A stretch of DNA of 64,000 nt from Gammaproteobacteria bacterium (GTDB taxonomy: Bacteria > Pseudomonadota > Gammaproteobacteria > CBDBNL01 > JAAOII01), in the NCBI GenBank assembly GCA_965207945.1, contig OZ242303.1, positions 61,199-125,198 of the forward strand. The letters run 5' to 3'. The translations under genes were made by a program, and so were the position numbers. Positions 7,260-20,550 of the stretch are shown one piece after another (position 1 is the stretch's first letter; each line of letters starts with the position of its first letter). The notes below the pieces were generated by a model that was not told the origin of the DNA, made no database searches, and worked only from the letters and a program-made list of their open reading frames with translations.

Positions 7260-10200
7260 TCAATCCACCCACAACCTGGCATTGTAAAACATTGCTTGCC
7301 AAGGGGTTATATAAGAGGTTGCCACCTCCGCTTTTCTTTGTATGGCTGTGGCGGATTTATCATGCCAGCACTGATTCACTCTTCTTAACGTCCTTTCTGG
7401 ATGCGGCATTAATAGCGTAACCCTGCCATCTTTGGATGTCATACCGGCAATGCCATGCTCAGAACCATTGGGATTGAGCGGATAAGCGGGATTATCATTT
7501 CCCTGTCCGTCTGTATAAACCATTGCTGCTCGTTTCTTGTTAAGCGCCTGTTCGCCGTCCTTGCTCCTGCTAAAAGTTGCCATGCCTTCACCATGTGCCG
7601 AAGCAATTGGTATAACGCTACCTTCCATGCCTGTAAAAAATATACTTGGTGATTTGCATATTTTCACCATAACCGTACGTGCTTCAAACCTACGTGATTC
7701 GTTACGCTGGAAGCGGCAATTCCAATCCGCCCCTTCAATAATCTCCTGTAGGCGAGACAGCACCTGACAACCATTGCATATCCCCAGCGTAAAGGTATCC
7801 TTGCGTTGAAAGAATTGCTGAAACTCTTCTTTAAGTTTGGGATTATATAGAATGCTTGCCGCCCAACCAACTCCAGCGCCCAAAGCATCGCCGTAAGTAA
7901 AGCCGCCACAGAAAACTGCCCCTTTATAATCCTTCAATTTATCGGAGCCATCTTTTTTGAGGTCATTTATATGCACATCCACCGCCTCAAAACCCGCATT
8001 ATGAAAGGCAAGAGCGGTTTCTATATTACTATTCACTCCCTGTGTGCGCAAAATTGCAACCTTAGGACGGCTTTTGTTTAGCAGCTTTATGCTGTTATAG
8101 CTATTATATTTCCCCGCCATATCAAACTTAATATTCTCTTGAATTCCTTTATAGTTAAAATCTTCTATTAGGAGCGCTTCCTGTTTAACACACTGTGGAT
8201 TATCATCCCTGAGTTCACGTATATTATCTGAAACCTTGTTCCACAACGAACGCATTGCACTCATCTTTTTATCTATCAGAGTCCGTCCAGCACAGCTAAT
8301 TTCTATCCTATCTTTATCAATGGGGACGCCAAGCTTATGCACAACTAAATTATGTTGCTTTCCACGCTCTAATACCTTACTCTCATTCTCGGGCGCCACT
8401 TGGATAACAGCACCTGCCTCTTCACCAAATAGGGCGGTATACTCATTCTGCTGTTGTTTCATCATCCCAGTTAAATCAATGGATAGCCCGCAATTGGAAG
8501 CAAAAGCCATTTCACTTAACGTTGTCCATAACCCGCCATCCGACACATCATGATAGGCAAGCAATAACTTATCGTGCACTGCATCGCTAACAAAAGAAAA
8601 GAAGTTGGCAATATCCTTGGGCGACTCTATGTCCGCAGTTTCCCCCTCCCATTGTTGCATCACTTGTGCCAGCGCCGAACCCCCAAGACGATTACTGCCA
8701 TGCCGTGTGCTAACCAGCCACAAGGAGGGCAGCATATTTTTATAAGTGTCGGTATGTAATAGTGAGTTGTCAGCACCAGTGTTTTTATAAGTGTCGGTTT
8801 GCAATAGCGAGTTGTCAGCACCAGTGTTTTTATAAGTGTCGGTATGCAATAGTGAGTTATCGCCATCAATGTTTTTATAAGTGTCGGTTTGTAATAGTGG
8901 GTCAACCCCCAACCTGACATCTATTAGTGGCGCCAGCCCGCTCATTATCAAAGATAGAGGCGATATAACATTTTGCTTATCCCAGGAGGCAGACATAAAT
9001 AAAGAATCCTTGCCAACCGGTATAGCAAGCCCCAACTCCTGACACATTTCTTCAGTTAAAGTCCTAACCCCCTCATAGAGATTTGCCATCTGACCATCCT
9101 CATTGCTGGCAGCCATCCAGTTAGCACATAGTTTTATATCCTGTAGTTTCTTTATGCCGCTGGCAGCCAAATTAGTTACTACCTCTGCCAATGCCATACG
9201 CACCGCCGCTTTGGGATTGAGGATTGCCAAAGGAGTACGCTCACCAATTGCCGCCGCCTCACCACCAAACCCGCTAAAATCTGCCAAAGTGGCGGCATAA
9301 TCATTGATTGGCACTTGCCAGGGACCAACCATCTGCTCTCGCGCCGTCAGACCGCCAACAAACCTATCACCAATAGTAATTAGAAAGCCCTTGCTTGCCA
9401 CCGCTGGCAACTGCAGCACCTTCTCTGCATACTCACTAATCTCGCTAATGTTTGGTACCACAAAATCCTTAGTTTCAACTGGTACATAAGAGACGATAAT
9501 CTCCTTAGGTGTTTTAGGGAATAGAATTTCAAGGGGCAAGTTGATGGCATCGGTATCCCGACTATCTTCTTTATTCTCACGATTATCCTTATTATCCTGC
9601 TGCATCAGACGCAGTTCACCACTCTTGTTAGTTTTACCTATTACCTTGTAAGGAGCATTCTCACGCTGGCAGATTTTATCAAACTCATCCAAACGCTCTG
9701 GATCCACCGCCAGCAAAAATCTCTCTTGGCTTTCATTACTCCATACTTCTGCTGGAGACATAGAAGGATCCGCAACAGGAATATCACGCAGCTCAACCTC
9801 ACCACCACATTTGCCATCCTTCAACAGTTCCGCTACTGCGTTGCCGAGCCCTCCAGCTCCCAAGTCGTGTATAAAAATAATTGGGTTTTTCTTCCCCTGG
9901 CGCGAGCAGGCCTCAATCGCCTCTGCACATCTTTTTTCCGTCTCCGCATTATCACGTTGCACCGAAGCAAAATCTAACTCTACATTCTTCTTGCCGCCGC
10001 TACTTTTAAGGGAAGATACTGAACCACCACCAATCCCAATTCGTAATGCAGGTTCTCCCATAAGCACTAAATGCGCTCCCTCATCAATTTCCTCTGGCTT
10101 GATAGCTTGGTCGTTGCTAATCTCGCCCCAACCACCAGCAAGCATAATTGGTTTATGATAACCGTATTTGATACCATCTCTTTCACAACTTAGAGTGCGA

Positions 10201-11507
10201 AAGTATCCTGCCAAGGTAGGTCTGCCAAACTCATTAGCATAGTGACTGCTACCCAAAGGTGCCTCCAACATTATCTGTTGGGCTGATGCCTTGCCAAAAG
10301 GGCAACCAAAATCCTGCTCCCAAGTATAATTATTTTTATCCAACAGCAGGTCGGATACACTAAAGCCAGCAAACCCAGCTTTAGTTCTACCTCCTATGCC
10401 GCAGGCGAGTTCATCCCTTATCTCTCCGCCAACCCCAGTGGCAGCCCCTGGAAAGGGTGACACAAATGTAGGATGATTGTGTGTTTCGGCTTTGAATATT
10501 AGATGACGCTTTTGTTCTCTATGCTGATATTCACTAGAGCTATCTCCCTCATAACGATTGAAAGCAGATATCTTTGCAGTGGCAAAGATAGCCGCATTAT
10601 CTGTATATGCGGAAACTAAACCAGCAGGAGATTTTTTACTGGTTTCTTTGATGAGCCCAAACATTGTCGGACTGTGACCATTCTGGCTTGAAGATTTATC
10701 CGCCGAGTCGTCGCTGCTTATCACAGCATTAAAAATCTTATGGCGACAATGTTCCGAATTAAGTTGCGCAAACAGCATCAACTCTGCATCTGTAGCAGGG
10801 CGTTCAAGCTTGTGATAAACCTCCCGCAGATACTCTAACTCATCCTCACTAATCGCCAAACCCCATTCTCTATTGGCAACTTGCAGCTCAGCAAGGTCAT
10901 CCATATTGACACGCCTTAAATCATTGTCGGCATGGCTATCAATAAAATACCGCTCCAATTCTTGCTCGGACAATATCTCTTGCGTCATCTTATCGCAAAC
11001 TGAACCTTTCAACTCGTCTATATTATTTTTCAATGAAGCAGGAAGTGCATATTTATAACCCTTTTCAATTAATCTTCCACCATCCCAATCTTTTAACGAA
11101 GGAAAAATATCCTCAAGTATATCCTGCGTCTTGCTCGACCAAGGAGAATGAGTGCCACGCCGCGGCGCCACATAAAAGAGGGTATCTCGGAAGGAGTGAG
11201 TAGCCGCCTGGCTGTGAGAGGGTGCATCATCTTTATTAGCCAGTGATATCGCGCCAAAATTTGTACTGAATAATAATTTTTTCAGTTGTTCTTTTTCTCG
11301 CTCATTAAAAGGGTGATCTGGATGAAGGAAAAAGAACTCGCTACGAGTTGCAGTATAAATTGATTTAACAACATGCCCTTTACCGGATTTGGGTGCATGA
11401 AGGATAACTGGAATATCTATCTTCTCACTTGACAATCCCTTTTCGTCAAAAATAATCTCGGTGCGTGATTGTTTGTCCGACTCTGACACCAAATCCTTAT
11501 GATTCAT
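7260..11507 (-). CDS. purL: Phosphoribosylformylglycinamidine synthase, large single-chain form.
   Basis: 1415 aa. The FGAM synthetase core is followed by a C-terminal glutamine amidotransferase domain with GICNGCQ. It carries extra insertions relative to E. coli PurL (1295 aa). Confidence 0.95.
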   Translation of the reverse strand: MNHKDLVSESDKQSRTEIIFDEKGLSSEKIDIPVILHAPKSGKGHVVKSIYTATRSEFFFLHPDHPFNEREKEQLKKLLFSTNFGAISLANKDDAPSHSQAATHSFRDTLFYVAPRRGTHSPWSSKTQDILEDIFPSLKDWDGGRLIEKGYKYALPASLKNNIDELKGSVCDKMTQEILSEQELERYFIDSHADNDLRRVNMDDLAELQVANREWGLAISEDELEYLREVYHKLERPATDAELMLFAQLNSEHCRHKIFNAVISSDDSADKSSSQNGHSPTMFGLIKETSKKSPAGLVSAYTDNAAIFATAKISAFNRYEGDSSSEYQHREQKRHLIFKAETHNHPTFVSPFPGAATGVGGEIRDELACGIGGRTKAGFAGFSVSDLLLDKNNYTWEQDFGCPFGKASAQQIMLEAPLGSSHYANEFGRPTLAGYFRTLSCERDGIKYGYHKPIMLAGGWGEISNDQAIKPEEIDEGAHLVLMGEPALRIGIGGGSVSSLKSSGGKKNVELDFASVQRDNAETEKRCAEAIEACSRQGKKNPIIFIHDLGAGGLGNAVAELLKDGKCGGEVELRDIPVADPSMSPAEVWSNESQERFLLAVDPERLDEFDKICQRENAPYKVIGKTNKSGELRLMQQDNKDNRENKEDSRDTDAINLPLEILFPKTPKEIIVSYVPVETKDFVVPNISEISEYAEKVLQLPAVASKGFLITIGDRFVGGLTAREQMVGPWQVPINDYAATLADFSGFGGEAAAIGERTPLAILNPKAAVRMALAEVVTNLAASGIKKLQDIKLCANWMAASNEDGQMANLYEGVRTLTEEMCQELGLAIPVGKDSLFMSASWDKQNVISPLSLIMSGLAPLIDVRLGVDPLLQTDTYKNIDGDNSLLHTDTYKNTGADNSLLQTDTYKNTGADNSLLHTDTYKNMLPSLWLVSTRHGSNRLGGSALAQVMQQWEGETADIESPKDIANFFSFVSDAVHDKLLLAYHDVSDGGLWTTLSEMAFASNCGLSIDLTGMMKQQQNEYTALFGEEAGAVIQVAPENESKVLERGKQHNLVVHKLGVPIDKDRIEISCAGRTLIDKKMSAMRSLWNKVSDNIRELRDDNPQCVKQEALLIEDFNYKGIQENIKFDMAGKYNSYNSIKLLNKSRPKVAILRTQGVNSNIETALAFHNAGFEAVDVHINDLKKDGSDKLKDYKGAVFCGGFTYGDALGAGVGWAASILYNPKLKEEFQQFFQRKDTFTLGICNGCQVLSRLQEIIEGADWNCRFQRNESRRFEARTVMVKICKSPSIFFTGMEGSVIPIASAHGEGMATFSRSKDGEQALNKKRAAMVYTDGQGNDNPAYPLNPNGSEHGIAGMTSKDGRVTLLMPHPERTLRRVNQCWHDKSATAIQRKAEVATSYITPWQAMFYNARLWVD
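8737..8905 (-). repeat. In-frame tandem 45-bp repeat of about 3.7 copies inside purL, encoding four 15-aa units of the form LLQTDTYKN(T/I)G(A/D)DNS.
   Basis: The plus strand shows tttttataagtgtcggt(a/t)tg(t/c)aatag(t/c)gagttgtcagcaccagtg repeated head to tail. The frame is preserved through the repeats. Confidence 0.85.
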
Positions 11508-11956
11508 TAGAGTAAAACTTTAATTGTAATTGTCTTATATCTATCCGCACGCAAACTCCCTAAAACTAACATATTCATTTAGCAAGCAAGGTTATTGAAA
11601 AAGTGCATTCATTGTAGCACTATTATATTACATTATAGAGATTTCAATCCTTGTAGTCATCGGTTGTATTGAATATTTCTGCCCGTTCTGTTTTATTGCT
11701 TTACCCTAAAAATAGAAGAATACTTACTTAATGGGAGATAGTATAATTCCCCTTGATAAAATTGTACTTCAGTTAGTCAGCAGACACCAAAAAACCTCTT
11801 CAGATTAAACGTCACTATGCAAAGATGATTAAAGAATTTTATATGGAGATATTTGAACCAGGCGCTATAATTTTCATGGTCATAATTAATTTTTTAATGT
11901 ATAATTAACGTTTTATTATTAATAAATTTTTATAAACCATACAAAGGAGTAGTACC

Positions 11957-12262
11957 ATGATTGAAGCAGTATTTATAAACAATGATGGAAAGATCGTAGA
12001 AGTTTCTGTGAGGAACATTTATGATATTTCCAATAAAATCCAACGATTAGTAAATGATAACAACTTCCCATTGCATGAAAGTGAGGAAGAAGCTACGAGG
12101 GCTGGAAGTTCGTATGATCGCATCTCCAGATCTGATATGAATGAGTGGACTGATGCCCGTAAGGAATTAATAAAGCAGGCAGATAGTAATCAAAGTTTAT
12201 GGATATTAATTTCTTTCTTTGATTCTTTGGCGGAAAAAGTTGGGATGCAGAACTATAAATAA
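11957..12262 (+). CDS. Hypothetical small protein (101 aa) at the left edge of the island.
   Basis: The ORF has a good AAGGAG Shine-Dalgarno 7 nt upstream. I see no recognisable domain. Confidence 0.4.
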   Translation: MIEAVFINNDGKIVEVSVRNIYDISNKIQRLVNDNNFPLHESEEEATRAGSSYDRISRSDMNEWTDARKELIKQADSNQSLWILISFFDSLAEKVGMQNYK

Positions 12263-12355
12263 TATAAATATTTTAAGGAGTATGTTGTTGATAAACTAGG
12301 AGGCTTATTCTAATACACTTTCTGCTAGTATATCTTTAACTTATAATATAAAGCA

Positions 12356-12718
12356 ATGAAAGAGAAAATGAAGTTTAATTACGGCAACGTTAGGCGCATA
12401 CCTGATAATCTATCTGGGGTTTATGCATTTTGGGTTTTCCCTGAGGCTATTAGTGTTTGGCGATGCCTTTATATTGGAAAAGCAGACGTTTGCTTAAAGA
12501 AAAGATTAAAAAATCACTGGGATAGAGAACCTAGTGTAGGGAAAGATTTTATTGATGATAGAGAGGTATACTCAGATGATTTGTACTTTTGTTACTATTC
12601 AAGGAGTTATCTAGATAAGCAAAAGGTACATAACTTGGAGAGTATGCTAATTAAAAAATGGGGGCCTGATAGTAATACTGTCAAAAAAATTAAGAAATTA
12701 AAGTATAATAGAAAGTGA
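12356..12718 (+). CDS. GIY-YIG nuclease-family protein (120 aa).
   Basis: The GIY-YIG motifs are visible: GVYAF…YIGKA…RLKNH, followed by a conserved Glu. Confidence 0.65.
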   Translation: MKEKMKFNYGNVRRIPDNLSGVYAFWVFPEAISVWRCLYIGKADVCLKKRLKNHWDREPSVGKDFIDDREVYSDDLYFCYYSRSYLDKQKVHNLESMLIKKWGPDSNTVKKIKKLKYNRK

Positions 12719-12754
12719 ATTTAGTAATAATTAACCGAAGAGGAAATTAATAAC

Positions 12755-14071
12755 ATGTCAATTACATTACCTGTGATAAGAGGTCAAATGGGGATACATA
12801 CATATTATGTGGCTACAATGTCTGCACAAGATGCGACATTATTAATAAAAATGCCAAGCATTGTACCTGGCTGGAATTCTATTGAAGCTAGAGCTCAAAG
12901 AACGGTGGATTCTAAAAGAGTTGAGAAGGGGTTATATCCTTACTTAACTAATAAAAGTGCCGATAGATTTTTTGGCTCTTTAATAGTTGGAGTTCAATAT
13001 CTGGAAGAGGCGGATACTAGTAGTAAGATAGACAAAAAAAAGAAAAAAATTGTTTTTGAACCTATCGAAAAATATGGGGATTTACCCGTTGCATATGACC
13101 AACCAGCCGAAAGAATGGGAATATTAACTATAAAAGATAGTAGTATACTAGTAGTTCCTTATGATGGACAGCATAGGTTATTAGGATTAAGGTATGCTAT
13201 TGAAGGAAGAAAAAACACAGGGGATGAGATTCGTTCAGGAGAAAACAATCTCTCGGTGGCTAAGGATATAATTTCTGTTATTCTTCTTCCATATAGCGTA
13301 GGAACTTCCAGAAATATATTTACCAAACTTAATAGATATTCTAAGCCAACCAGTGCTACCCAGAATTATATCACCGATGATGATGACTCTATAGCGAGCA
13401 TAGCAAGAAAAATAACAAATACGGTTATTAACCAAAAGAGAGACGATATTGATTTAGTTAATTGGATAAGCAATTCTTTAAAGAAGAAGGATGGTTACTT
13501 CACCACACTTGATACGATTTACAAATGCACAAAGGCAATAATAGAAGAGATAGCGTCTAAAAAAATTCTAACAGGTGAAAGATTGAAGGATGAACTGGAG
13601 AGGAAATATTTTAAAGCAGCAAAGGATACTTGGGAGTTTTTATTAAAAGAGATAGATGAGTTTAAGGATGCTTTAAAGAATAGAACTAAAGCGGGTGATG
13701 AAAATAGAATGCAGATACGCGAATATTCGTTGCTTGGGAAGCCAGTGCCTCAGCAATGCATAGTAGAGGCATTTTTAAAAATTATAAGAGATAAAAAGAT
13801 ATCAAAGGAAGAGGCTGTTAAAAGGTTAAATAAAATACCCTGGGATATAGGAAATCCGCTATGGGATAGCATACTGTGGCAAGGAGATGGGGATACAGGA
13901 AAAATATTGACCAAAGGTAAAAAAATTGCCATTGATCTAGTATCTTACATGTGTGGGGCAACCATGACAACTGCTCAAGAAAGTAATCTATTAGCAAGAT
14001 ATGAGGCTTTATTATCACCTGATGATAATAGGAGGGGAAAGTTACCTAATAAGTTGAATAAACGCAGCTAG
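12755..14071 (+). CDS. DGQHR-domain protein, DndB-like (ParB/sulfiredoxin fold).
   Basis: The N-terminus LPVIRGQMGIHTYYVATM matches the DndB PAIRG…YY signature, and the eponymous YDGQHRLLGL motif is present. 438 aa. Confidence 0.8.
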   Translation: MSITLPVIRGQMGIHTYYVATMSAQDATLLIKMPSIVPGWNSIEARAQRTVDSKRVEKGLYPYLTNKSADRFFGSLIVGVQYLEEADTSSKIDKKKKKIVFEPIEKYGDLPVAYDQPAERMGILTIKDSSILVVPYDGQHRLLGLRYAIEGRKNTGDEIRSGENNLSVAKDIISVILLPYSVGTSRNIFTKLNRYSKPTSATQNYITDDDDSIASIARKITNTVINQKRDDIDLVNWISNSLKKKDGYFTTLDTIYKCTKAIIEEIASKKILTGERLKDELERKYFKAAKDTWEFLLKEIDEFKDALKNRTKAGDENRMQIREYSLLGKPVPQQCIVEAFLKIIRDKKISKEEAVKRLNKIPWDIGNPLWDSILWQGDGDTGKILTKGKKIAIDLVSYMCGATMTTAQESNLLARYEALLSPDDNRRGKLPNKLNKRS

Positions 14072-15243
14072 TGGTTAGATCACTTTCTGCTGCCGTCCCT
14101 GCTACAGATAACATAATAGCGACAAGTGCGGAATTCCTTAATCCTATTAGCTTAAAAGAAAAAATATCACGCATCCAAGCAGACATAGAGGAAGCCTATT
14201 TTGAGAAGACCTGTCCGTGGGTTATTGCTTATTCCGGAGGGAAGGACTCTACTATGGTACTTCAGTTGGTCTGTGAGTTCTTATTATCCTTGCCCAAAGA
14301 CAAGCATAATAAAGAAATCCATATAGTGTCAAATGATACTCGTGTGGAGTCGCCCGTTATATCACAACATTTAGATAAAAGCTTGGAGTTACTCAAAAAA
14401 TTTCAAAAAGAACACTCGCTACCTATCAAGGTGCAGAAAACAGTGCCAGCAGAGAATGATTCTTTTTGGGTGAATCTCATAGGGCGTGGTTACATACCAC
14501 CGACTAGAGTGTTTAGGTGGTGTACTAGCAAGATGAAAATAGAACCAACCAACAAGTACATTAAGAACTTCATAGATAGGAATGGTGAAGTAGTCCTTTT
14601 ATTAGGGGTAAGGACAAGTGAATCAACTTCGCGCGGAAGATCTATTAAGAAGCACACCAATGACGATGGGACTAGGTATAACCCTCATAGTATGATGCCG
14701 AAGTGCTTAATATATAGACCGATTATAGATATAGAGAATGAAGAAATATGGCAGTTACTGCTGCAACGTCCTTCCCTTTGGGGTGGAAATAATCGCGAGC
14801 TAATTACTATTTACAGAAATGCTGCTGGTGGAGAATGCCCTACAGTTCTGTCCGAAGACGATGCCCCTTCTTGTGGGTCGTCATCTGTTAGGTTTGGTTG
14901 CTGGACGTGCACCGTTATTAGCAAAGATAGGAGCTTGGGCGGCCTAGTAGATTCTGGACTTGATTATCTAGAACCCTACATGAATTTTAGAGATTGGTTA
15001 ATAGAATTAAGAGAAGATGATGGCAATAGAACACCCGTGCGTAGAAATGGCCGTTGGAAGAAAAAAGAAAATGGTTCTACGGTTAAGGGACCATTTTTAA
15101 TAAGTATTCGCAAGGAGATATATAGTAGATTACTTGAATTAGAGAAAGAAGTAGGAGAGAAATTAATTACTAAGAGCGAAATTTTCTTAATAGAAAGAAT
15201 CTGGCGCCAAGATGAGAAAAAAGCAATCTGGCCAGTAAATTAA
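14071..15243 (+). CDS. PAPS-reductase-family PP-loop ATP pyrophosphatase, DndC/SspD/IbrA-like, with a C-terminal Cys cluster.
   Basis: The PP-loop VIAYSGGKDST is present, together with Cys motifs ECPTV…SCGSS…RFGCWTCT. The GTG start overlaps the upstream stop (TAGTG), consistent with translational coupling. Confidence 0.8.
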   Translation: MVRSLSAAVPATDNIIATSAEFLNPISLKEKISRIQADIEEAYFEKTCPWVIAYSGGKDSTMVLQLVCEFLLSLPKDKHNKEIHIVSNDTRVESPVISQHLDKSLELLKKFQKEHSLPIKVQKTVPAENDSFWVNLIGRGYIPPTRVFRWCTSKMKIEPTNKYIKNFIDRNGEVVLLLGVRTSESTSRGRSIKKHTNDDGTRYNPHSMMPKCLIYRPIIDIENEEIWQLLLQRPSLWGGNNRELITIYRNAAGGECPTVLSEDDAPSCGSSSVRFGCWTCTVISKDRSLGGLVDSGLDYLEPYMNFRDWLIELREDDGNRTPVRRNGRWKKKENGSTVKGPFLISIRKEIYSRLLELEKEVGEKLITKSEIFLIERIWRQDEKKAIWPVN

Positions 15244-15254
15244 GTAGTGTTATA

Positions 15255-17000
15255 GTGAAGAAAAATCCTTTTTCTGCCAAAGCTCTACCACTGTATGAAC
15301 TCTTTAATGGCTTTATGGCGGAGCACAATATAGAGTCATTTCTCATTCCACAATATCAGAGGTTCTACTCATGGAAACCTAAGCATGTGAAGGACCTTTT
15401 ATCAGATATAGCTATGGCTATAACTGATAATGAAGATGGTTTTTTTTTAGGACCCATTCTATTATCTAATTCCCCAGAATCCCAGAAGAGTATTTCAATA
15501 GTTGATGGTCAGCAGAGGATAATAACCACGTCCCTAATTTTAGGGGCATTAATGCATCATGTTTATAACTTGAAACAAGAGAACAATGAAGTTGCTATGC
15601 GCTGCCTTTGGGATTTACCCAAAGAACTCACAGATATAGCCCATATATCACCTGGCAATATACCAACTAAACTAAGCTTTTCTTTAGAAAATGATGATAC
15701 TTCTTATCAGCTGATGATATGTGATAATCAGGCATATATTTCAGGACCTATTAAAAAAGCTTATGAAAGTATAAATGCATTTTTTGCTGGGTACTCTTAT
15801 GAAGATACTTGTAAGTATATCAATTATCTCACTAATAAGGTGTTCTTTGTGGCAATAAAACCAGATGAACATGTCAAGCAAATAAACAAGATATTTGAAA
15901 CATTGAATGATAGAGGGATGCCTCTTAATCAAATAGAGTTATTTAAGAACTTTGCACTTAGTTATTTTAGCCCCCGTGACAAGAAATTTGATTTATTTGA
16001 AAAACTATACATGTGGCTAAATACTGTGGATTCTGTTGAAAGATATTTGGCTGTATATTCTATGCTGCACTATGATTATAAGACAGTTAAGCGTGAGAAA
16101 AATTTATACAGGTTATGGAAAAATAGAATCTATGAATATCCAAAGTCCGAGAGGAAGAGTCAAATGCGTATTATTCTTGATGACCTCTCATCCTCTCTTG
16201 AATATTACCAGGCGATCTCCAAAGAGGGCAGTTCGCTTTGGATGACAAGGTATAAAGGTGCAGCAATGAATGATGACAGAATGCTTGCTATGATTCAATT
16301 TTTGAGTAAATACAAAATTACTCATCCTATTCTTTTTGCTATAGTTAAAAGAGAACCTGGCTATAAGGTTTTGAAAAGCTGCTATCATATAATTTATTCC
16401 CTTTTAGCTAGAGTGTGGTTAATTCACTCTCTATCACGGGCTGGCAATTTGGAGGAAATATTAACCACTGTAGCATTAGGTATAAATAAGAAAGAAATTG
16501 AACTATCTCCTGATAATCTATATAAGAATATAGTTAAACAAGCTGGATCTCACTATACAGATATAACGGATGATAAACTATTTAGTACCAAGTTGGGCGT
16601 TATAGAATATCCAGGAAATGTGGATCCCCGCACTAAATTCATATTTACTGAGATAGTTAACTCAAATCAAAAAGAGATTAAGATTATGAAGGAAGATACC
16701 CTCAAGGTATCCCATGTATTGCCTAGGGATGAAGGGGAGCTCTCCGATTGGGGTGGCTTCCCTTTAGCGGATTACCTTACAAGCCGCCATAAATTAGGAA
16801 ACATGGTTTTATTAAATGGAGAAGCCCCTCGGGTTGTTAATAGTCAATCTTTTAAAGAAAAGAAAAAGATCTTTGCGGAATCTGATTTTGATATAACTAA
16901 AAATATATCTTTGGTGCATAATTGGGGTCCACAAGAGATCCAACAAAAGCAAAAAGAATACGCCCAGCAAATCACCCAAATACTTTCATTGCCCTCTTAA
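15255..17000 (+). CDS. DUF262 + DUF1524 protein (GmrSD/SspE-like putative modification-dependent or modification-sensing nuclease).
   Basis: The N-terminal DUF262 signature is IPQYQRFYSW…VDGQQRI. The C-terminal DUF1524 His-Me motif is VSHVLPRDEG…GN(M)VLLN. 581 aa, with a GTG start. Confidence 0.8.
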   Translation: MKKNPFSAKALPLYELFNGFMAEHNIESFLIPQYQRFYSWKPKHVKDLLSDIAMAITDNEDGFFLGPILLSNSPESQKSISIVDGQQRIITTSLILGALMHHVYNLKQENNEVAMRCLWDLPKELTDIAHISPGNIPTKLSFSLENDDTSYQLMICDNQAYISGPIKKAYESINAFFAGYSYEDTCKYINYLTNKVFFVAIKPDEHVKQINKIFETLNDRGMPLNQIELFKNFALSYFSPRDKKFDLFEKLYMWLNTVDSVERYLAVYSMLHYDYKTVKREKNLYRLWKNRIYEYPKSERKSQMRIILDDLSSSLEYYQAISKEGSSLWMTRYKGAAMNDDRMLAMIQFLSKYKITHPILFAIVKREPGYKVLKSCYHIIYSLLARVWLIHSLSRAGNLEEILTTVALGINKKEIELSPDNLYKNIVKQAGSHYTDITDDKLFSTKLGVIEYPGNVDPRTKFIFTEIVNSNQKEIKIMKEDTLKVSHVLPRDEGELSDWGGFPLADYLTSRHKLGNMVLLNGEAPRVVNSQSFKEKKKIFAESDFDITKNISLVHNWGPQEIQQKQKEYAQQITQILSLPS

Positions 17001-17158
17001 CTGTCATTATCTCTCAGCCAGTATAAATTATTCTGGCTTATAATTCTATAATACCTTTTATACAATTTACCCAATAATAATGCAGGCATACAACCTCCAC
17101 ACCATACCCCCCCAACCTCACCATCTTGCAATCCCAACATATAATATAATCCATATAT

Positions 17159-18226
17159 ATGAAAGATAAGATTAAGGTAGCTATTTATGGAGCTTCGGGT
17201 TATACCAGTTCGGAGTTGTTGCGGTTGCTTGAGCAGCATCCGAATGTGCAGGTTTGCGCGGTGGTGTCGCACTCGCAAGTTGGTAAGTGTTTGGGTGCGT
17301 TGCATCCCCATCTTGGTGAGGAGCTTGGCGCTATGGAGGCGATTTCTGCCGAGCAGGTTCCTGATTGTGATTGTGTATTTTTTGCTACGCCAGCGTGTGT
17401 TGCAATTAAGGAGGCGGGTAGGTTGTTAGATAAGGGGGTAAAAGTTATAGATTTGTCGCCCGATTTTCGGATTAAGGATGCCAAGTTATGGCAGCAGTGG
17501 TACGCAAAGGAGCATGGCGCGACTGATTTATTGGCAGAGGCGGTGTATGGTTTGCCTGAGGCGAATCGCGCTGCCATTAAGAAGGCGCGGCTTATTGCTA
17601 ATCCAGGTTGCTATGCAACTACGGTGCAGTTGGCATTGTTGCCGTCATTGCTATCCGCTAAGCATGGTGGGCAACTTGCAGGTAAGGAGTTAGTCGTGGA
17701 TGCCAAGTCCGGCGTTAGTGGGGCGGGTAAGAATCTGGCAACCGATCTTTTATTGGGTGAGGCGGGAGAGGATTTTACCTGCTATTCAGCGGAAGGGCAT
17801 AGGCATCAGCCAGAGATGGAGGAGTCATTACAAGAAAAGAGTGGAGTAAATGTGAAGCTACGTTTTGTTCCTCATTTATTGCCGCTGGTGCGTGGAATTT
17901 TTGTGGATATATATTTACCGCTTGGCAGTGGAAGTGATAACAATCCAGCTGCTGATGAATTAAGAAGCGTGTATAGTAAGTTTTATGCCGCCGAGCCGTT
18001 TGTGAAAGTATTGGCTAAGGGGCAGGCACCACATATTAAACATACTCGCGGGAGCAATCATTGTCATTTAGCTGTTTTCGCTGCTCCTGGTTCTACTTAT
18101 ATACAGGTGTGTGGAGTTTTGGATAACTTGGTTAAGGGGGCGTCTGGTCAGGCGATCCAGAATATGAATATTATTTTTGGTTTGGATGAGAAGGAGGGGC
18201 TGCAGCAGGCAGCGTTGACGCCTTAG
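17159..18226 (+). CDS. argC: N-acetyl-gamma-glutamyl-phosphate reductase.
   Basis: IAIYGASGYTSSELLRLLEQHP at the N-terminus and the catalytic-Cys region NPGCYAT. Confidence 0.9.
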   Translation: MKDKIKVAIYGASGYTSSELLRLLEQHPNVQVCAVVSHSQVGKCLGALHPHLGEELGAMEAISAEQVPDCDCVFFATPACVAIKEAGRLLDKGVKVIDLSPDFRIKDAKLWQQWYAKEHGATDLLAEAVYGLPEANRAAIKKARLIANPGCYATTVQLALLPSLLSAKHGGQLAGKELVVDAKSGVSGAGKNLATDLLLGEAGEDFTCYSAEGHRHQPEMEESLQEKSGVNVKLRFVPHLLPLVRGIFVDIYLPLGSGSDNNPAADELRSVYSKFYAAEPFVKVLAKGQAPHIKHTRGSNHCHLAVFAAPGSTYIQVCGVLDNLVKGASGQAIQNMNIIFGLDEKEGLQQAALTP

Positions 18227-18232
18227 TAAAGT

Positions 18233-19099
18233 TTAGGGGGTATTGTTAGTCATGCGGGCTACTTTAAAAAGCTTACCATCTTCCAGTCGTTTGGCTGCTA
18301 AGTGTAGTCCCCAAGCACAGCCATAATCCATCGCCAGCATTTTTGCTTGGTTGGTTACGCCGCGGATAGCAGCCCAATGTCCAAAGACAATCAGCGTCTT
18401 TTCTTTTCTGGGATAGTCAAACCATGCTGCGCAGTTGGCGGGTGCTTCATTTGCTGCTCCTGCACTGCTCAGTTCCATCTTACCTTCGGCAGTGCAGAAG
18501 CGCATGCGGGTTAGGTAGTTGATAATTACCCTTAGGCGTTCACTTTCGTTGGATACCTCATCCATAGAAGAGGGCTGGTTGCCATATAGACCGCTCATTA
18601 GTTTTTGCATAGCAATTTGTTGTGTGGGGGCAGAACCAGAGGCATAAGTGCTTTGTAGTTGCTGCTCAGCATATCTGGCAAATCTCGCTGCTTGCTCTAT
18701 GCTCCAAATATGGGGTATTCCAGCATGCACCAAAACATAGTCATCTTGCTTGTTCCAATATAACAGCGATTGATGCAGCAGCCATTCAATTATTTGTTGG
18801 GCATCGCTGGCATCTATAATTTGGTTTAGGGTTGTATCTTGGTTTTTATCTCTGTCGTAGCCGCCAAAGTAAAGGGCGATTAGGTGCAGGTCGTGATTGC
18901 CAAGGACAACTTTCACCTCGGGATTTTCTTGCTGTAAGGAACGGACTAAGTGCACTGTTTTATATGCCTCGCTGCCACGCCCCACTAAGTCGCCAGTGAA
19001 TAGAAGTTTGTCTTGGTTCGGTTGATAGGATATAGCATCAAGCATTTTTGCTAGTTCATCATAGCAGCCATGCACATCGCCAATAAAATAAGATGCCAT
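18233..19099 (-). CDS. apaH: Bis(5'-nucleosyl)-tetraphosphatase (symmetrical).
   Basis: FIGDVHGCYDEL…TGDLVGRG…LGNHDLHL are the ApaH metallophosphatase motifs. Confidence 0.9.
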   Translation of the reverse strand: MASYFIGDVHGCYDELAKMLDAISYQPNQDKLLFTGDLVGRGSEAYKTVHLVRSLQQENPEVKVVLGNHDLHLIALYFGGYDRDKNQDTTLNQIIDASDAQQIIEWLLHQSLLYWNKQDDYVLVHAGIPHIWSIEQAARFARYAEQQLQSTYASGSAPTQQIAMQKLMSGLYGNQPSSMDEVSNESERLRVIINYLTRMRFCTAEGKMELSSAGAANEAPANCAAWFDYPRKEKTLIVFGHWAAIRGVTNQAKMLAMDYGCAWGLHLAAKRLEDGKLFKVARMTNNTP

Positions 19100-19132
19100 G
19101 CTGGATTAACTCCAGCTTTTGTTAGTCATTGA

Positions 19133-19519
19133 TTAATTGATAATTCGCGGTATAGAGAGCGTGAATTTTTTGATCGGAACATTAAATTCCATGCCATCCG
19201 AGCTGCGCATAATGTATTCGCCTTCCATGGTTCCCATCTCGGTATCCAACATTATTCCACTGGTATATGCAAACGAATGATTGGGTTCAATAACGGGCTT
19301 CTTGCCCACCACGCCTTCTCCTTCAACTTCGTGTGATTCGTTGTTGCCATCGGTCACTGTCCACTTACGTCCCACCAGCTGTATATTGTCATCGCACAAG
19401 TTTGTTATGCCGATGGTATATAAGAAGACATAACGATTCTCATTTGGGTTGGATTTTTTTCCATCATATTTTGTGAATATCTCTATTCGCAAAGCTTCGT
19501 CGTCGTGTTTAGAATTCAT
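19133..19519 (-). CDS. apaG: ApaG (DUF525) protein.
   Basis: NENRYVFLYTIGITN…EVEGEGVVGKKPVIEP…YTSG corresponds closely to E. coli ApaG. It sits in the conserved rsmA-apaG-apaH context. Confidence 0.85.
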   Translation of the reverse strand: MNSKHDDEALRIEIFTKYDGKKSNPNENRYVFLYTIGITNLCDDNIQLVGRKWTVTDGNNESHEVEGEGVVGKKPVIEPNHSFAYTSGIMLDTEMGTMEGEYIMRSSDGMEFNVPIKKFTLSIPRIIN

Positions 19520-19577
19520 AACGCTTATTTAAGGTTGTTTAGGTATTATACAAGACATCTGCGTATTTATGCATACT

Positions 19578-20549
19578 TTAACTTAGCGCTCGCATTATGC
19601 TGATGAAGTCAGCGAGGGATGTTTGTTTGGCGCGTTTTTCTGCAAGGTTTAGGTGGTGCAGGGTTTCTTGCTGGTGTAATTCTTTAATGGTATTACGCAG
19701 ATGGCGGTTAGGGCGGGAGAAGGCGGAAGTTATGATACCATTGAGTGTGCGTATTTCTTGCGGGCTAGTTATACTTTCGTATAGGCATGGTGTTAGACGA
19801 ACAAAGGAAGACATTACTTTAGGTGGGGGGACAAAAGAACGGGGCGGTAAGTCAAACAACTTTTCACCCTGAGCCATGGTTTGGCGCATTAAGCTGAGAC
19901 GACAATAGTTGTCGCCGCCCACTGCGGCAAGTAATCTTTGCGCTATTTCTTTTTGCACCAAGAAGTGCATGTCTCTTACATTGATTGCCGCAGTGTTGTT
20001 TGCGGCGGAATTATTAACGCCATCATTGCTTGCGACACTTATCCTCTCGCTGCCGATGCCGAAGTGGGCGAGCAGAAGAAACCGTTCCATTAAGTGCACG
20101 CTGATGTTATAGGGTAAGTTGCCCACTATACGTATTTCTTTTGATTTCGTCTTCGCCCCTGCCTCTATCTTCGTCTCCGTCCCTACCTTTGCCCCTGCCT
20201 TATTGTCCTCGCCCTCACTCTCCCCAGGTAATCCAGCAAACGCATCATCAAGGTTATCCTTTAGAGCATCTGCATTAATGATAGTTAAGTTGTTTATATG
20301 GGAGGTCTTGTCGCGTAAGTTGGTTGCCAGCTGTTGGTCTATTTCTATGGCTGTTATATGCCGACACCTTTCGCTGAGCGGCAGAGTTAGAGCGCCATCA
20401 CCACATCCTATTTCTATAAAAACATCTTCCTTTTGAGGTGCGATTGCTTCAACCAATCTATCCAGCGCATTGGGGTTGCGTAGAAAGTGCTGCCCTAAGC
20501 TCTTGCGCGCTTTTGGCTGATTATTGTTTGCTTGCTTCTTCAATCTCAA
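19578..20549 (-). CDS. rsmA: 16S rRNA (adenine1518/1519-N6)-dimethyltransferase, carrying two low-complexity insertions.
   Basis: LGQHFL…IEIGCGDGALT…GNLPYNIS are the KsgA motifs. 323 aa against ~273 aa typical. The inserts are GLPGESEGEDNKAGAKVGTETKIEAGAKTKSKE and SNDGVNNSAANNTAAIN. Confidence 0.9.
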   Translation of the reverse strand: MRLKKQANNNQPKARKSLGQHFLRNPNALDRLVEAIAPQKEDVFIEIGCGDGALTLPLSERCRHITAIEIDQQLATNLRDKTSHINNLTIINADALKDNLDDAFAGLPGESEGEDNKAGAKVGTETKIEAGAKTKSKEIRIVGNLPYNISVHLMERFLLLAHFGIGSERISVASNDGVNNSAANNTAAINVRDMHFLVQKEIAQRLLAAVGGDNYCRLSLMRQTMAQGEKLFDLPPRSFVPPPKVMSSFVRLTPCLYESITSPQEIRTLNGIITSAFSRPNRHLRNTIKELHQQETLHHLNLAEKRAKQTSLADFISIMRALS

Positions 20550-20550
20550 T

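What the first reader, a model, noticed from the sequence alone, without database searches (positions are those of the whole stretch)
11508..17158. Compact DndB-like / DndC-like / GmrSD-like island between purL and argC, a candidate undescribed DNA modification-restriction defence module
Four co-directional genes sit in an AT-rich stretch flanked by conserved housekeeping genes: a GIY-YIG nuclease (12356-12718), a DndB-like DGQHR protein (12755-14071), a PAPS-reductase-family PP-loop enzyme with SGGKDS and a C-terminal RFGCWTC Cys cluster typical of DndC (14071-15243), and a DUF262+DUF1524 nuclease (15255-17000). In characterised phosphorothioation systems, DndB and DndC work with DndA/D/E, and SspD and SspE work with SspA/B/C. 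All of those partners (cysteine desulfurase, SMC-like DndD, DndE, SspC ATPase) are absent here. The combination also resembles the poorly understood ParB-like + PAPS-reductase IbrAB-type pairs. A DndB-fold DNA binder plus a DndC-like ATP pyrophosphatase plus a ParB-like/HNH reader-nuclease suggests a minimal 'modify and sense' system. The chemistry is unknown; sulfur insertion or adenylation-dependent base or backbone modification are possibilities. This is my best candidate for the novel system in this window.
Basis: partly seen in the sequence, partly recalled or inferred. Interest (0 to 1): 0.85.

Follow-up and report, generated by a model that had tools for sequence, protein, structure and literature searches.

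The report
DndD/E-less phosphorothioation defence cassette
Four co-directional genes between purL and argC form a mobile, AT-rich cassette that most likely marks the host's DNA backbone with sulfur and cuts unmarked DNA, but it lacks two proteins (DndD and DndE) that reviews treat as part of the core modification gene set of Dnd-type systems, and it carries a nuclease plus DNA-binder pair that turns out to travel with five different kinds of sulfur-marking machinery.

Summary
ORFs sit exactly at 12356-12718 (GIY-YIG), 12755-14071 (DndB-like DGQHR), 14071-15243 (DndC) and 15255-17000 (DUF262+DUF1524), in a 29-42% GC island between purL and argC.

- The "GmrSD" is a full-length homolog of DndI, the known phosphorothioate (PT)-sensing nickase (profile E 1.5e-51 to PDB 9JFL).
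- The same four genes recur in about 25 genomes of many phyla. 15 of 26 such loci also carry an adjacent DndA-type cysteine desulfurase. None has DndD or DndE within 10 kb. In a control set, 56 of 57 ordinary DndC loci have DndD next door.
- These DndCs form their own clade (bootstrap 59/60).
- The GIY-YIG + DndB-like pair is a portable two-gene module. It also sits behind SspBCD, PDC-M33, a lone SspD-like gene and a canonical dndCDE cluster, and in one genome it is a single fused protein.
- In a second genome the cassette is bracketed by a direct repeat of at least 300 bp, which shows it is mobile.

Best reading: a compact PT modification-restriction cassette, a new variant of the IscS-DndBCDE-DndI system. 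Function is inferred and has not been demonstrated. No paper in the searchable library describes it.

The parts
12356..12718 (+). GIY-YIG nuclease (120 aa), first gene of the GIY-YIG + DndB-like pair
   Evidence: Family alignment A2 (40 sequences) has invariant Y23, Y39, G41, R50, E95, N107 and near-invariant H54, all present here. 35 of 40 members hit PF01541. A GIY-YIG gene lies directly upstream of the DndB-like gene in 53 of 57 loci that also carry a PAPS-reductase-family gene. In L043 the two are fused in one ORF.
12755..14071 (+). DndB-like DGQHR protein (438 aa): ParB/sulfiredoxin-fold N-terminal half plus a helical C-terminal half
14071..15243 (+). DndC (390 aa), a PP-loop ATP pyrophosphatase / [4Fe-4S] sulfurtransferase of the DndD/E-less clade
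   Evidence: TIGR03183 scores 356 bits, above its 290 cut-off. PADLOC DndC is 1.4e-120. The SGGKDS motif (55-60), C151, C256, C268, C277 and C280 are invariant in A5. The specificity loop is GYIPPTRVFRWC. The AF2 model is closest to the TtuA/NcsA [4Fe-4S] thiolases and PAPS reductases. It falls in the clade of DndCs that lack DndD/E (bootstrap 59/60).
15255..17000 (+). DndI-family protein (581 aa): DUF262 ParB-like NTPase plus DUF1524 HNH nickase
   Evidence: GmrSD_N 1.2e-31 and GmrSD_C 8.1e-14. The family profile A6 matches DndI (PDB 9JFL) end to end at E 1.5e-51; SspE matches at 1e-27 over the N-terminus only; BrxU is not matched. DGQQR 84-88, H487 and N516 are invariant. There is a Tyr at the position of DndI's PT-sensing Y25 (IPQ-Y-QRFYSW) (DndI data from PMC11662687).
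11957..12262 (+). 101-aa ORF of unknown function inside the AT-rich island; membership in the cassette is doubtful
   Evidence: It is conserved only in the sister-strain locus L004 (89% aa, dN/dS 0.14). It has no family hit, is absent from other cassettes, and is unrelated to the c9 small protein of the Ssp-linked loci.
11508..11956 (.). AT-rich intergenic stretch (GC 0.29) at the left edge of the island
   Evidence: Composition profile. Promoter-like hexamers at 11844-11905 are no more frequent than in shuffled sequence.
12338..12351 (+). Left copy of a 14-nt direct repeat (AACTTATAATATAA) that brackets the four genes; possibly a chance match
   Evidence: the repeat finder family D13: 12338-12351 and 17136-17149, 93% identical. 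The sequence is short and AT-rich, so this is weak evidence.
17136..17149 (+). Right copy of the 14-nt direct repeat

Best explanation
This is a compact, horizontally mobile phosphorothioate (PT) modification-restriction cassette built from two sub-modules.

Writer (inferred). DndC is a PP-loop, [4Fe-4S] enzyme. It would take sulfur from a cysteine desulfurase: the host's IscS here, or a cassette-encoded DndA in most relatives. It would adenylate a backbone phosphate at sites read by its own 'specificity loop', then replace the non-bridging oxygen with sulfur. It would do this without the DndD ATPase and the DndE DNA-binder of canonical Dnd systems.

Readers and effectors (inferred). The DndI-family protein (ParB-like NTPase + HNH nickase) would scan DNA. 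By analogy with Salmonella DndI, it would be released from PT-marked self DNA and would nick unmarked invading DNA. The GIY-YIG nuclease and the DndB-like ParB-fold protein would act together as a second, split reader-nuclease with the same domain logic (ParB-like NTPase + nuclease).

Shown here: the homologies, the intact catalytic motifs, conserved synteny across phyla, a distinct DndC clade, absence of DndD/E nearby, mobility, and purifying selection. Inferred: PT writing without DndD/E, PT sensing, and anti-phage function.
For: Identity of the parts.
- DndC passes the equivalog cut-off.
- PP-loop, Fe-S cysteines and specificity loop are conserved (residue roles from PMC12193691).
- The predicted fold is closest to [4Fe-4S] thiolases.
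- The nuclease partner is DndI-family over its full length, with the Y25-equivalent Tyr, DGQQR and HNH residues. DndI is an experimentally shown PT-sensing restriction partner (PMC11662687).

Sulfur chemistry. A DndA/SspA cysteine desulfurase is the only recurrent flanking family (15 of 99 flank proteins from 26 loci, best E 1.7e-169).

Conservation.
- About 25 loci from many phyla carry DndC + DndI-like + GIY-YIG + DndB-like, in two cyclically permuted gene orders.
- None of these loci has DndD/E within 10 kb, against 56 of 57 in the DndC-anchored control.
- These DndCs form a clade (59/60 bootstrap).
- Their specificity loop is nearly invariant: GYIPPTRNFRWC in 22 of 25.

The pair as an effector.
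- The GIY-YIG + DndB-like pair follows complete SspBCD writers in 17 of 19 such loci. It also follows PDC-M33 (5 of 5), a lone SspD-like gene (7 of 8) and a canonical dndC-D...E cluster (L116).
- SspBCD with a cysteine desulfurase is known to be sufficient for PT, so in those loci the pair is not needed for writing.
- Those loci lack SspE and SspFGH.
- The pair is fused into one ORF in L043.

Precedent. tdpC alone suffices for PT synthesis in TdpABC, as cited in PMC12914056.

Mobility and selection. A direct repeat of at least 300 bp brackets the low-GC cassette in L001. dN/dS is 0.13-0.26 for all four genes.
Against: - No experiment links this cassette to PT or to defence.
- Canonical DndC needs DndD and DndE in vivo, and the Type A DndC is only modestly diverged from DndD/E-linked DndCs (49% versus 43-51% identity). 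It has no extra domain that could replace them. Its short C-terminus is shared with many DndD/E-linked DndCs.
- The rest of the roughly 1.86-Mb source genome, and of the related genomes, could not be searched for dndD/E acting in trans.
- In lone SspD-like + pair loci and in the window there is no dedicated ATPase or nickase for writing, so the pair or the DndI-like protein might be part of the writer instead.
- Canonical DndB is a transcriptional regulator, not a restriction factor.
- TdpC could not be compared, because the paper and sequence are not held. No PDB relative of this DndC was found by sequence.
Confidence: 0.5

Rival explanations
1. The accessory proteins are part of the writer, not the restriction arm. 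The GIY-YIG nickase plus the DndB-like ParB-fold NTPase/DNA binder, and/or the DndI-like NTPase-nickase, would replace DndD (ATPase with nicking activity) and DndE (nicked-DNA binder), or SspB/SspC, to prepare DNA for DndC. The cassette may then be a modification-only or mostly epigenetic system.
For: Reviews state that every characterised Dnd/Ssp writer combines a PAPS-reductase-type enzyme, an ATPase and a DNA-recognising or nicking component (PMC12707154). The cassette has no DndD/E or SspB/C, yet it encodes two NTPase-type ParB-fold proteins and two nucleases. Loci with only an SspD-like gene plus the pair (7 of 8 with GIY-YIG) have nothing else to handle DNA. The DndB-like tree groups by writer type.
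Against: The pair also follows complete SspBCD and a complete dndCDE cluster, where it would be redundant for writing. DndI homologs are experimentally restriction factors (PMC11662687). tdpC shows that a single PAPS-reductase-type enzyme can write PT (PMC12914056).
Confidence: 0.22
2. This is an ordinary split Dnd system. DndD and DndE, and possibly DndFGH, are encoded elsewhere in the genome and act in trans with this DndB/DndC/DndI cluster.
For: Only 64 kb of a roughly 1.86-Mb contig could be inspected. dndA is often unlinked in known systems (PMC8092258, PMC3632139).
Against: In a DndC-anchored sample, DndD is within three genes of DndC in 56 of 57 informative loci. None of about 25 cassette loci has DndD/E within 10 kb. 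The cassette DndCs are a separate clade (59/60). The cassette moves as a four-gene unit bracketed by a direct repeat in L001.
Confidence: 0.08
3. The clade-A DndC catalyses a different reaction from canonical PT. It might make a stable adenylated or otherwise derivatised backbone, or thiolate another nucleic-acid position, which the two ParB-fold readers then recognise.
For: It is a distinct clade with three clade-specific substitutions and a nearly fixed specificity loop. It has no DndD/E. Its nearest solved folds are tRNA thiolases.
Against: It passes the DndC equivalog threshold. All Fe-S and PP-loop residues are conserved. A DndA-type desulfurase is adjacent in 15 of 26 loci. The partner is DndI-family, with the PT-sensing Tyr in the window copy.
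Confidence: 0.1
4. The arrangement is a chance juxtaposition or a decaying remnant: an orphan dndBC left after loss of dndDE, next to an unrelated type IV GmrSD enzyme and a stray GIY-YIG homing-type nuclease.
For: Defence genes cluster in islands, and orphan Dnd genes exist (PMC10853773).
Against: The same four genes recur in about 25 genomes of different phyla, in two orders. A GIY-YIG::DndB-like fusion exists. All ORFs are intact with dN/dS 0.13-0.26. The catalytic residues are invariant.
Confidence: 0.03

Closest known systems
IscS-DndBCDE-DndI phosphorothioation-sensing defence system (Salmonella enterica Cerro 87; PMC11662687)
   Same: Both have a DndC-family writer enzyme, a DGQHR/DndB-family protein and a DndI-family DUF262+DUF1524 nickase. 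The DndI match runs the full length of the protein, with DGQQR, the HNH residues and the Y25-equivalent Tyr. Both rely on IscS when no dndA is linked.
   Different: This cassette has no DndD ABC ATPase and no DndE. The DndB-like protein is far below the DndB equivalog cut-off (62 versus 328 bits) and is always paired with, and once fused to, a GIY-YIG nuclease. The DndC belongs to a separate clade. Here dndI is adjacent to dndC, whereas in Salmonella it is co-transcribed with dndFGH.
SspABCD-SspE (PMC8092258 and references therein; SspE PDB 6JIV/7DRS)
   Same: Both follow the logic of a PAPS-reductase-type writer plus a DUF262+DUF1524 PT-sensing nickase. The GIY-YIG + DndB-like pair of this cassette also occurs directly downstream of bona fide SspBCD operons (for example Thioalkalivibrio sulfidiphilus ALJ17, L048).
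   Different: The window has no SspB (DUF4007) and no SspC. The writer scores as DndC (1e-120), not SspD (2.5e-12). The nuclease matches SspE only over the N-terminal domain.
TdpABC 'hypercompact' PT system of thermophiles (An et al., Nat Chem Biol 2025; known here only through citations in PMC12914056 and PMC13223576)
   Same: It sets the precedent that a single PAPS-reductase-type gene (tdpC) suffices for PT synthesis without DndD/E or SspB/C.
   Different: From my own recollection of that paper, not checked here, TdpA and TdpB are a hexameric ATPase and a nuclease. They are not ParB-fold, HNH or GIY-YIG proteins. No sequence comparison with TdpC was possible. No solved structure is related to this DndC by sequence.
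GmrSD/BrxU type IV restriction enzymes (PMC4619093; PDB 7P9M)
   Same: They share the DUF262 (ParB-like NTPase) + DUF1524 (HNH) architecture. The best PADLOC hit is the single-gene candidate HEC-06 (7.8e-65).
   Different: GmrSD and BrxU attack modified phage DNA and act alone. The family profile here does not reach BrxU at E<=0.01 but matches DndI at 1.5e-51. The gene is strictly linked to DndC in about 25 genomes.
Canonical DndABCDE with accessory nucleases (Rakesh, Aravind and Krishnan 2024, PMC10853773)
   Same: That survey noted URI/GIY-YIG, HNH and other nucleases in Dnd neighbourhoods and regarded DndB as a ParB-superfamily enzyme with possible effector roles.
   Different: That survey anchors every system on the DndD/CxC + DndE dyad and states that the modification component would be non-functional without it. 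The present cassette lacks that dyad entirely.

Membership tests
Dnd phosphorothioation system (DndABCDE) | DndC: PAPS-reductase-family PP-loop [4Fe-4S] sulfurtransferase | tested here: met
   TIGR03183 scores 356 bits, above its 290 cut-off. SGGKDS and the conserved cysteines are present.
Dnd phosphorothioation system (DndABCDE) | DndD: SMC-like ABC ATPase adjacent to DndC | tested here: not met
   There is no PADLOC DndD hit in the window. My DndD profile finds none within 10 kb in any of about 25 cassette loci; the L002 control scores 3e-175. The rest of the genome could not be tested.
Dnd phosphorothioation system (DndABCDE) | DndE: small double-RHH DNA-binding protein paired with DndD | tested here: not met
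   No PADLOC DndE hit in the window. The DndE profile hits only the L002 control.
Dnd phosphorothioation system (DndABCDE) | DndB equivalog | tested here: not met
   TIGR03233 scores 62 bits against a 328 cut-off. The protein is a member only at domain level: TIGR03187 DGQHR 81.5 bits above 58.85, and PF14072 6.8e-34.
Dnd phosphorothioation system (DndABCDE) | DndA or IscS cysteine desulfurase | tested here: inconclusive
   None in the 64-kb window. One is adjacent in 15 of 26 related cassette loci. A host iscS elsewhere in the genome is expected but cannot be tested.
IscS-DndBCDE-DndI | DndI: DUF262 NTPase (DGQQR) + DUF1524 HNH, with a Tyr in the N-terminal hydrophobic PT-sensing patch | tested here: met
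   Profile A6 against 9JFL gives E 1.5e-51 over positions 6-586 of 588. DGQQR, H487 and N516 are invariant. The window has Tyr at the Y25-equivalent position, but most family members have His there.
IscS-DndBCDE-DndI | PT-dependent self/non-self discrimination and phage protection | not testable with these tools
   Requires genetics and biochemistry.
Ssp system (SspABCD-SspE) | SspB (DUF4007) and SspC ATPase next to SspD | tested here: not met
   Absent from the window and not recurrent in Type A flanks. They are present in the Type B relatives of the pair.
Ssp system (SspABCD-SspE) | SspE full-length homology | tested here: not met
   Only the N-terminal ~100 residues match SspE (2.7e-6 for the single sequence; 1e-27 for the profile, N-terminal only).
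TdpABC | TdpC ortholog with TdpA and TdpB partners | not testable with these tools
   The paper and sequences are not held. No solved-structure relative of the DndC was found by sequence.
GIY-YIG nuclease superfamily | GIY...YIG motifs plus catalytic Arg, His, Glu and Asn | tested here: met
   Y23, Y39, G41, R50, H54, E95 and N107 are conserved. 35 of 40 family members hit PF01541, although the window protein alone does not.
IbrA/IbrB (PAPS reductase + ParB-like pair) | IbrA-type PAPS reductase with a C-terminal DUF3440, plus a small ParB-like IbrB | tested here: not met
   Pfam finds only PAPS_reduct (and a weak PP-loop hit) in the 390-aa protein, with no DUF3440. The DndC equivalog threshold is passed.
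GmrSD-type type IV restriction enzymes | DUF262 + DUF1524 architecture | tested here: met
   PF03235 1.2e-31 and PF07510 8.1e-14. Within this superfamily the closest characterised member is DndI, not BrxU or GmrSD.

The most novel reading that the evidence does not exclude
Two linked claims.
(1) The clade-A DndC writes phosphorothioate, or a related backbone mark, with no DndD/E or SspB/C-type ATPase or DNA-handling partner. That would be a second, independent 'single-enzyme' route alongside TdpC, this time in mesophilic and largely symbiont lineages.
(2) GIY-YIG + DndB-like is a previously unrecognised, portable PT-reader/nuclease module. It is a split analogue of SspE/DndI that uses GIY-YIG in place of HNH. 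It plugs into at least five different PT writers: DndC-DndI, DndCDE, SspBCD, PDC-M33 and a lone SspD-like gene. It would account for part of the ~84% of sspBCD operons that have no known restriction partner.
Probability: 0.35. Interest if true: 0.75.

Novelty: new variant of a known kind. Interest (0 to 1): 0.62.

Why it matters
PT systems are the only known enzymatic DNA-backbone modification. Current surveys define them by DndC+DndD(+E) or SspBCD, or by requiring a P-loop NTPase next to dndC, so this cassette escapes all of them.

If the cassette writes PT, DndD/E are dispensable for a whole clade of DndC. That constrains models of how the oxygen-sulfur swap and site selection work. The nearly invariant specificity loop predicts one shared target motif.

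If the GIY-YIG + DndB-like pair is a PT-dependent effector, it adds a fifth restriction partner class after DndFGH, DndI, SspE/SspFGH and PbeABCD. It would also reinterpret 'DndB-like' genes in many genomes, including archaeal ammonia oxidisers, as effectors rather than regulators.

The module is 4.6 kb, has no ATPase motor and is mobile, so it is an attractive minimal system to reconstitute.

Tried and rejected
- Short C-terminus as a marker of DndD independence. B7A DndC binds DndD through residues 433-482 and its C-terminal helix (PMC12193691), and the window DndC ends about 110 residues after the CxxC motif. However, 28 of 51 DndD/E-linked DndCs are equally short, so the feature is not diagnostic.
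- Sequence search of the DndC, and of its family profile, against the PDB to locate TdpC or any solved relative. Nothing came back below E 0.1.
- Homolog search with the 120-aa GIY-YIG protein. Only same-species copies were returned. The family was assembled from locus ORFs instead.
- Promoter and terminator scans. Nothing above shuffled expectation.
- Island boundaries in the window. I found only a 14-nt AT-rich direct repeat, which may be chance, and no integrase or tRNA.
- The 101-aa ORF as a cassette component or a relative of the ~95-aa 'c9' protein of Ssp-linked loci. There is no similarity.
- Diversifying selection on the GIY-YIG/DndB-like pair. The pair is far more diverged than DndC and DndI between two strains, but dN/dS is low (0.16-0.26) and the adjacent purL is also diverged. 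This is a recombination mosaic, not positive selection.
- Plasmid, phage and IMG/VR searches for the DndB-like protein. Essentially empty.
- Exact-sequence look-up of the source contig.

Full report
OBSERVATION. They are tightly packed, with gaps of 36 and 11 bp and one 1-nt overlap. They lie in a 29-42% GC stretch between purL (7260-11507, -) and argC (17159-18226, +), whose GC is 44-49%.

Profile searches support three of the domain calls directly.
- DndB: PF14072 at 6.8e-34, and the TIGR03187 DGQHR domain above its cut-off.
- DndC: TIGR03183 at 356 bits, above the 290 cut-off, and PADLOC DndC at 1.4e-120.
- GmrSD: GmrSD_N at 1.2e-31 and GmrSD_C at 8.1e-14.

The 120-aa protein hits no GIY-YIG model on its own. 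In an alignment of 40 homologs taken from related loci, however, the whole GIY-YIG catalytic set is invariant or nearly so and is present in the window protein: Y23, Y39/G41, R50, H54, E95, N107. 35 of the 40 members hit PF01541.

IS IT A UNIT? A neighbourhood look-up of DndC homologs gave the first answer.
- A 64%-identical DndC on a 2.17-Mb contig (L001) sits in the same GIY-YIG / DndB-like / DndC / GmrSD order.
- A 52%-identical DndC in Ca. Spongiihabitans (L003) sits in the order DndC / GmrSD / GIY-YIG / DndB-like, followed by a cysteine desulfurase.
- An equally similar DndC in Brevundimonas (L002) sits in a canonical dndA-C-D-E operon.

I then anchored a scan of 185,579 species genomes on the DndB-like protein (alignment A1). 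It returned 158 relatives, of which the best 80 loci were kept. I called and clustered the ORFs in these loci. Five architectures emerged.
- Type A, 25 distinct loci including the window: [DndA]-DndC-GmrSD-GIY-YIG-DndB-like. The window order is a cyclic permutation of this.
- Type B, 19 loci: [SspA]-SspB-SspC-SspD-(~95-aa ORF)-GIY-YIG-DndB-like. The Ssp genes were confirmed with PADLOC at E 1e-92, 0 and 1e-102 in Thioalkalivibrio sulfidiphilus ALJ17.
- Type C, 5 archaeal Nitrosopumilus/Cenarchaeum loci: PDC-M33A-B-C (the last with an SspD-like domain), then the pair.
- Type D, 8 loci: a lone SspD-like gene, then the pair.
- One metagenome contig (L116) has the pair inserted in a canonical dndC-dndD...dndE cluster.

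A GIY-YIG gene lies directly upstream of the DndB-like gene in 24/25, 17/19, 5/5 and 7/8 of Types A to D. Where no PAPS-reductase-family gene is nearby, it does so in only 3 of 15 loci. In L043 the two are one 555-aa ORF, with GIY-YIG at residues 20-122 and DndB-like at 127-553. The cassette therefore consists of two sub-modules, DndC+GmrSD and GIY-YIG+DndB-like, and the second is portable.

ARE THE CANONICAL PARTNERS REALLY ABSENT?
- In the window, none of the other 39 ORFs of at least 90 aa matches any Dnd, Ssp or Pbe model (PADLOC E<=1e-3). By Pfam they are housekeeping genes.
- Among 99 proteins flanking 26 Type A loci, the only recurrent PADLOC family is the DndA/SspA cysteine desulfurase (15 members, best E 1.7e-169).
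- DndD and DndE profiles built from canonical loci find nothing credible within 10 kb of any Type A locus. The L002 control scores 3e-175 and 4e-37.
- As a control for what is normal, I ran a DndC-anchored scan of metagenome contigs. DndD lies within three genes of DndC in 56 of 57 informative loci, and no GmrSD-like neighbour appears in any.
- A neighbour-joining tree of 111 DndCs puts all 25 Type A sequences on one side of a split that excludes all 67 DndD/E-linked ones (59/60 bootstraps).

What could not be tested is whether dndD/E lie elsewhere in these genomes.

WHAT ARE THE PARTS?

DndC. The PP-loop (S55-S60) and the cysteines C151, C256, C268, C277 and C280 are invariant in alignment A5. 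They correspond to the Fe-S ligands of E. coli B7A DndC, C146/C273/C280/C283 (PMC12193691). The AF2 model (pLDDT 78) is closest to the [4Fe-4S] tRNA thiolases TtuA and NcsA, to PAPS/APS reductases and to LarE. It is GYIPPTRNFRWC in 22 of 25 Type A proteins but hypervariable in canonical DndCs. This predicts a single shared target motif for the clade.

The 'GmrSD'. A profile of 25 Type A sequences matches DndI (PDB 9JFL) end to end at E 1.5e-51. It matches SspE only N-terminally (1e-27), and it does not reach BrxU. DGQQR, H487 and N516 are invariant. The window protein has a Tyr at the position of DndI's PT-sensing Y25. In Salmonella, DndI is a nickase. It is toxic to PT-free cells. PT stimulates its ATPase, and that releases it from self DNA (PMC11662687).

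MOBILITY AND SELECTION. In L001 the cassette (GC 35-40%) sits in a 50-57% GC genome. It is bracketed by a direct repeat of at least 300 bp (96% identical, 5,478 bp apart). The repeat duplicates the first 139 codons of the GSDH gene that follows the island. In the window only a 14-nt AT-rich repeat brackets the genes, and this may be chance.

I compared the window with a sister strain that has the same purL...argC context (L004). All four genes show dN/dS of 0.13-0.26. Divergence, however, is a mosaic. DndI (99.3% aa, dS 0.02) and DndC (96.1%, dS 0.11) resemble argC and its neighbours. DndB-like (78%, dS 0.49), GIY-YIG (69%, dS 1.16), the 101-aa ORF and the end of purL (84%) are much more diverged. 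The breakpoint at the DndB-like/DndC boundary fits two sub-modules with separate histories.

MECHANISM. The best-supported model is a PT modification-restriction cassette.

Writer (inferred). DndC takes sulfur from IscS or DndA, adenylates the backbone phosphate at loop-selected sites and replaces the oxygen with sulfur, without DndD/E. That a single PAPS-reductase-type enzyme can do this has a precedent in tdpC (cited in PMC12914056).

Reader 1 (inferred by homology to DndI). A ParB-like NTPase + HNH nickase that spares PT-marked DNA.

Reader 2 (inferred from context). GIY-YIG + DndB-like acts as a split enzyme with the same ParB-NTPase-plus-nuclease logic. Three arguments place the pair in the effector arm.
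- It follows complete SspBCD and dndCDE writers, which are known to suffice for modification.
- Those loci lack SspE and SspFGH. The SspFGH paper reports that 84% of sspBCD operons have no known restriction partner (PMC8092258).
- Having more than one restriction module per writer is documented: SspE with SspFGH, and DndFGH with DndI.

The main rival is that the pair and/or the DndI-like protein supply the NTPase and nickase functions that DndD/E or SspB/C provide elsewhere. Loci with only an SspD-like gene plus the pair keep that possibility alive. A trans-acting DndD/E, a different chemistry, and chance juxtaposition are less likely, for the reasons given under the rival explanations.

COMPARISON AND NOVELTY. 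The closest known system is IscS-DndBCDE-DndI. This cassette shares the DndC, DndB-family and DndI-family proteins. It lacks DndD and DndE, which are defining components and were tested and not found locally. It adds a GIY-YIG partner to a divergent DndB-like protein. It is not an Ssp system, not IbrAB, and not a stand-alone GmrSD.

Published surveys would miss it.
- The Aravind/Krishnan survey anchors on the DndD/CxC-DndE dyad (PMC10853773).
- The BREX-4 paper required a P-loop NTPase beside dndC (PMC12914056).
- The DndI paper searched for dndBCD (PMC11662687).
- Sponge-symbiont genome papers only remarked on 'dnd-like' genes and on DUF262/DUF1524 enrichment (PMC6790972, PMC7848895).

Six full-text searches found no description of the arrangement. 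The library lacks most subscription-journal papers, so prior description cannot be excluded. I rate the cassette a new variant of a known kind, of moderate to high interest. Everything about its function remains inference.

Noticed in passing
window 42638-62678 (+): Seven tandem co-directional ORFs of 850-1231 aa. Five of them hit the Pfam GLUG motif (PF07581, best 1.6e-14). This is a paralog array of large putative surface or secreted proteins.
   Followed up: no
window 8660-8920 (within purL, - strand); also pdxA 20551-21807 and ksgA 19578-20549: purL carries an internal tandem peptide repeat (LL[HQ]TDTYKN[TM]GADNS...). pdxA and ksgA are 30 and 20 residues longer than in the sister strain L004, and their translations contain low-complexity runs (Ser/Thr/Pro-rich in pdxA; Gly/Ala/Lys/Glu-rich in ksgA). 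Whether those runs are the extra residues was not checked. Low-complexity stretches in housekeeping genes may be a feature of this genome.
   Followed up: no
L116:4760-~12000: A metagenome contig in which the GIY-YIG + DndB-like pair sits between dndD and a dndE-containing gene of an otherwise canonical dndC-D-E cluster. This is a fifth type of PT writer associated with the pair.
   Followed up: partly
L068, L071, L073, L076, L078 (for example L073:5309-11200): Archaeal (Nitrosopumilus/Cenarchaeum) loci combine the uncharacterised PADLOC candidate PDC-M33A/B/C with the GIY-YIG + DndB-like pair. The third PDC-M33 gene carries DUF6339 plus an SspD-like PAPS-reductase domain. This suggests PDC-M33 is itself a PT-type writer.
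   Followed up: partly
L036, L043, L048, L049, L050, L065 (for example L048:9336-9632): A conserved ~95-aa ORF with no family hit lies between sspD and the GIY-YIG gene in six Ssp-linked loci. It may be a third component of the pair in that context. It is unrelated to the window's 101-aa ORF.
   Followed up: partly
L001:14114-14233: About nine tandem copies of a 12-nt unit (AGAACCTAAGTA/AGAACCTAAATA), beginning within the last bases of the GSDH gene that follows the island.
   Followed up: no
window 11508-14071 versus 14071-21807, compared with L004: Mosaic divergence between two strains. The left side (end of purL, orf101, GIY-YIG, DndB-like) has dS 0.37-1.16. The right side (DndC, DndI-like, argC through pdxA) has dS 0.02-0.22. 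This implies a recombination breakpoint at the DndB-like/DndC junction.
   Followed up: yes
L005-L084 (record titles): Many genomes carrying the DndB-like family have sponge-associated names or lineages: Ca. Spongiihabitans, Ca. Porisulfidus, Ca. Poriferisocius, AqS3, Cenarchaeum, Binatia, Dehalococcoidia, Acidimicrobiia, Nitrospinota, Latescibacterota. This suggests ecological enrichment. It is inferred from the names only; sample metadata were not checked.
   Followed up: no
L052, L053, L084, L037, L060 flanks: PbeA/PbeC-like genes, from a PT-linked restriction module, lie a few kb from the Ssp + pair loci in about 3-5 of 27 cases. Some loci therefore stack several PT-dependent effectors.
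   Followed up: partly
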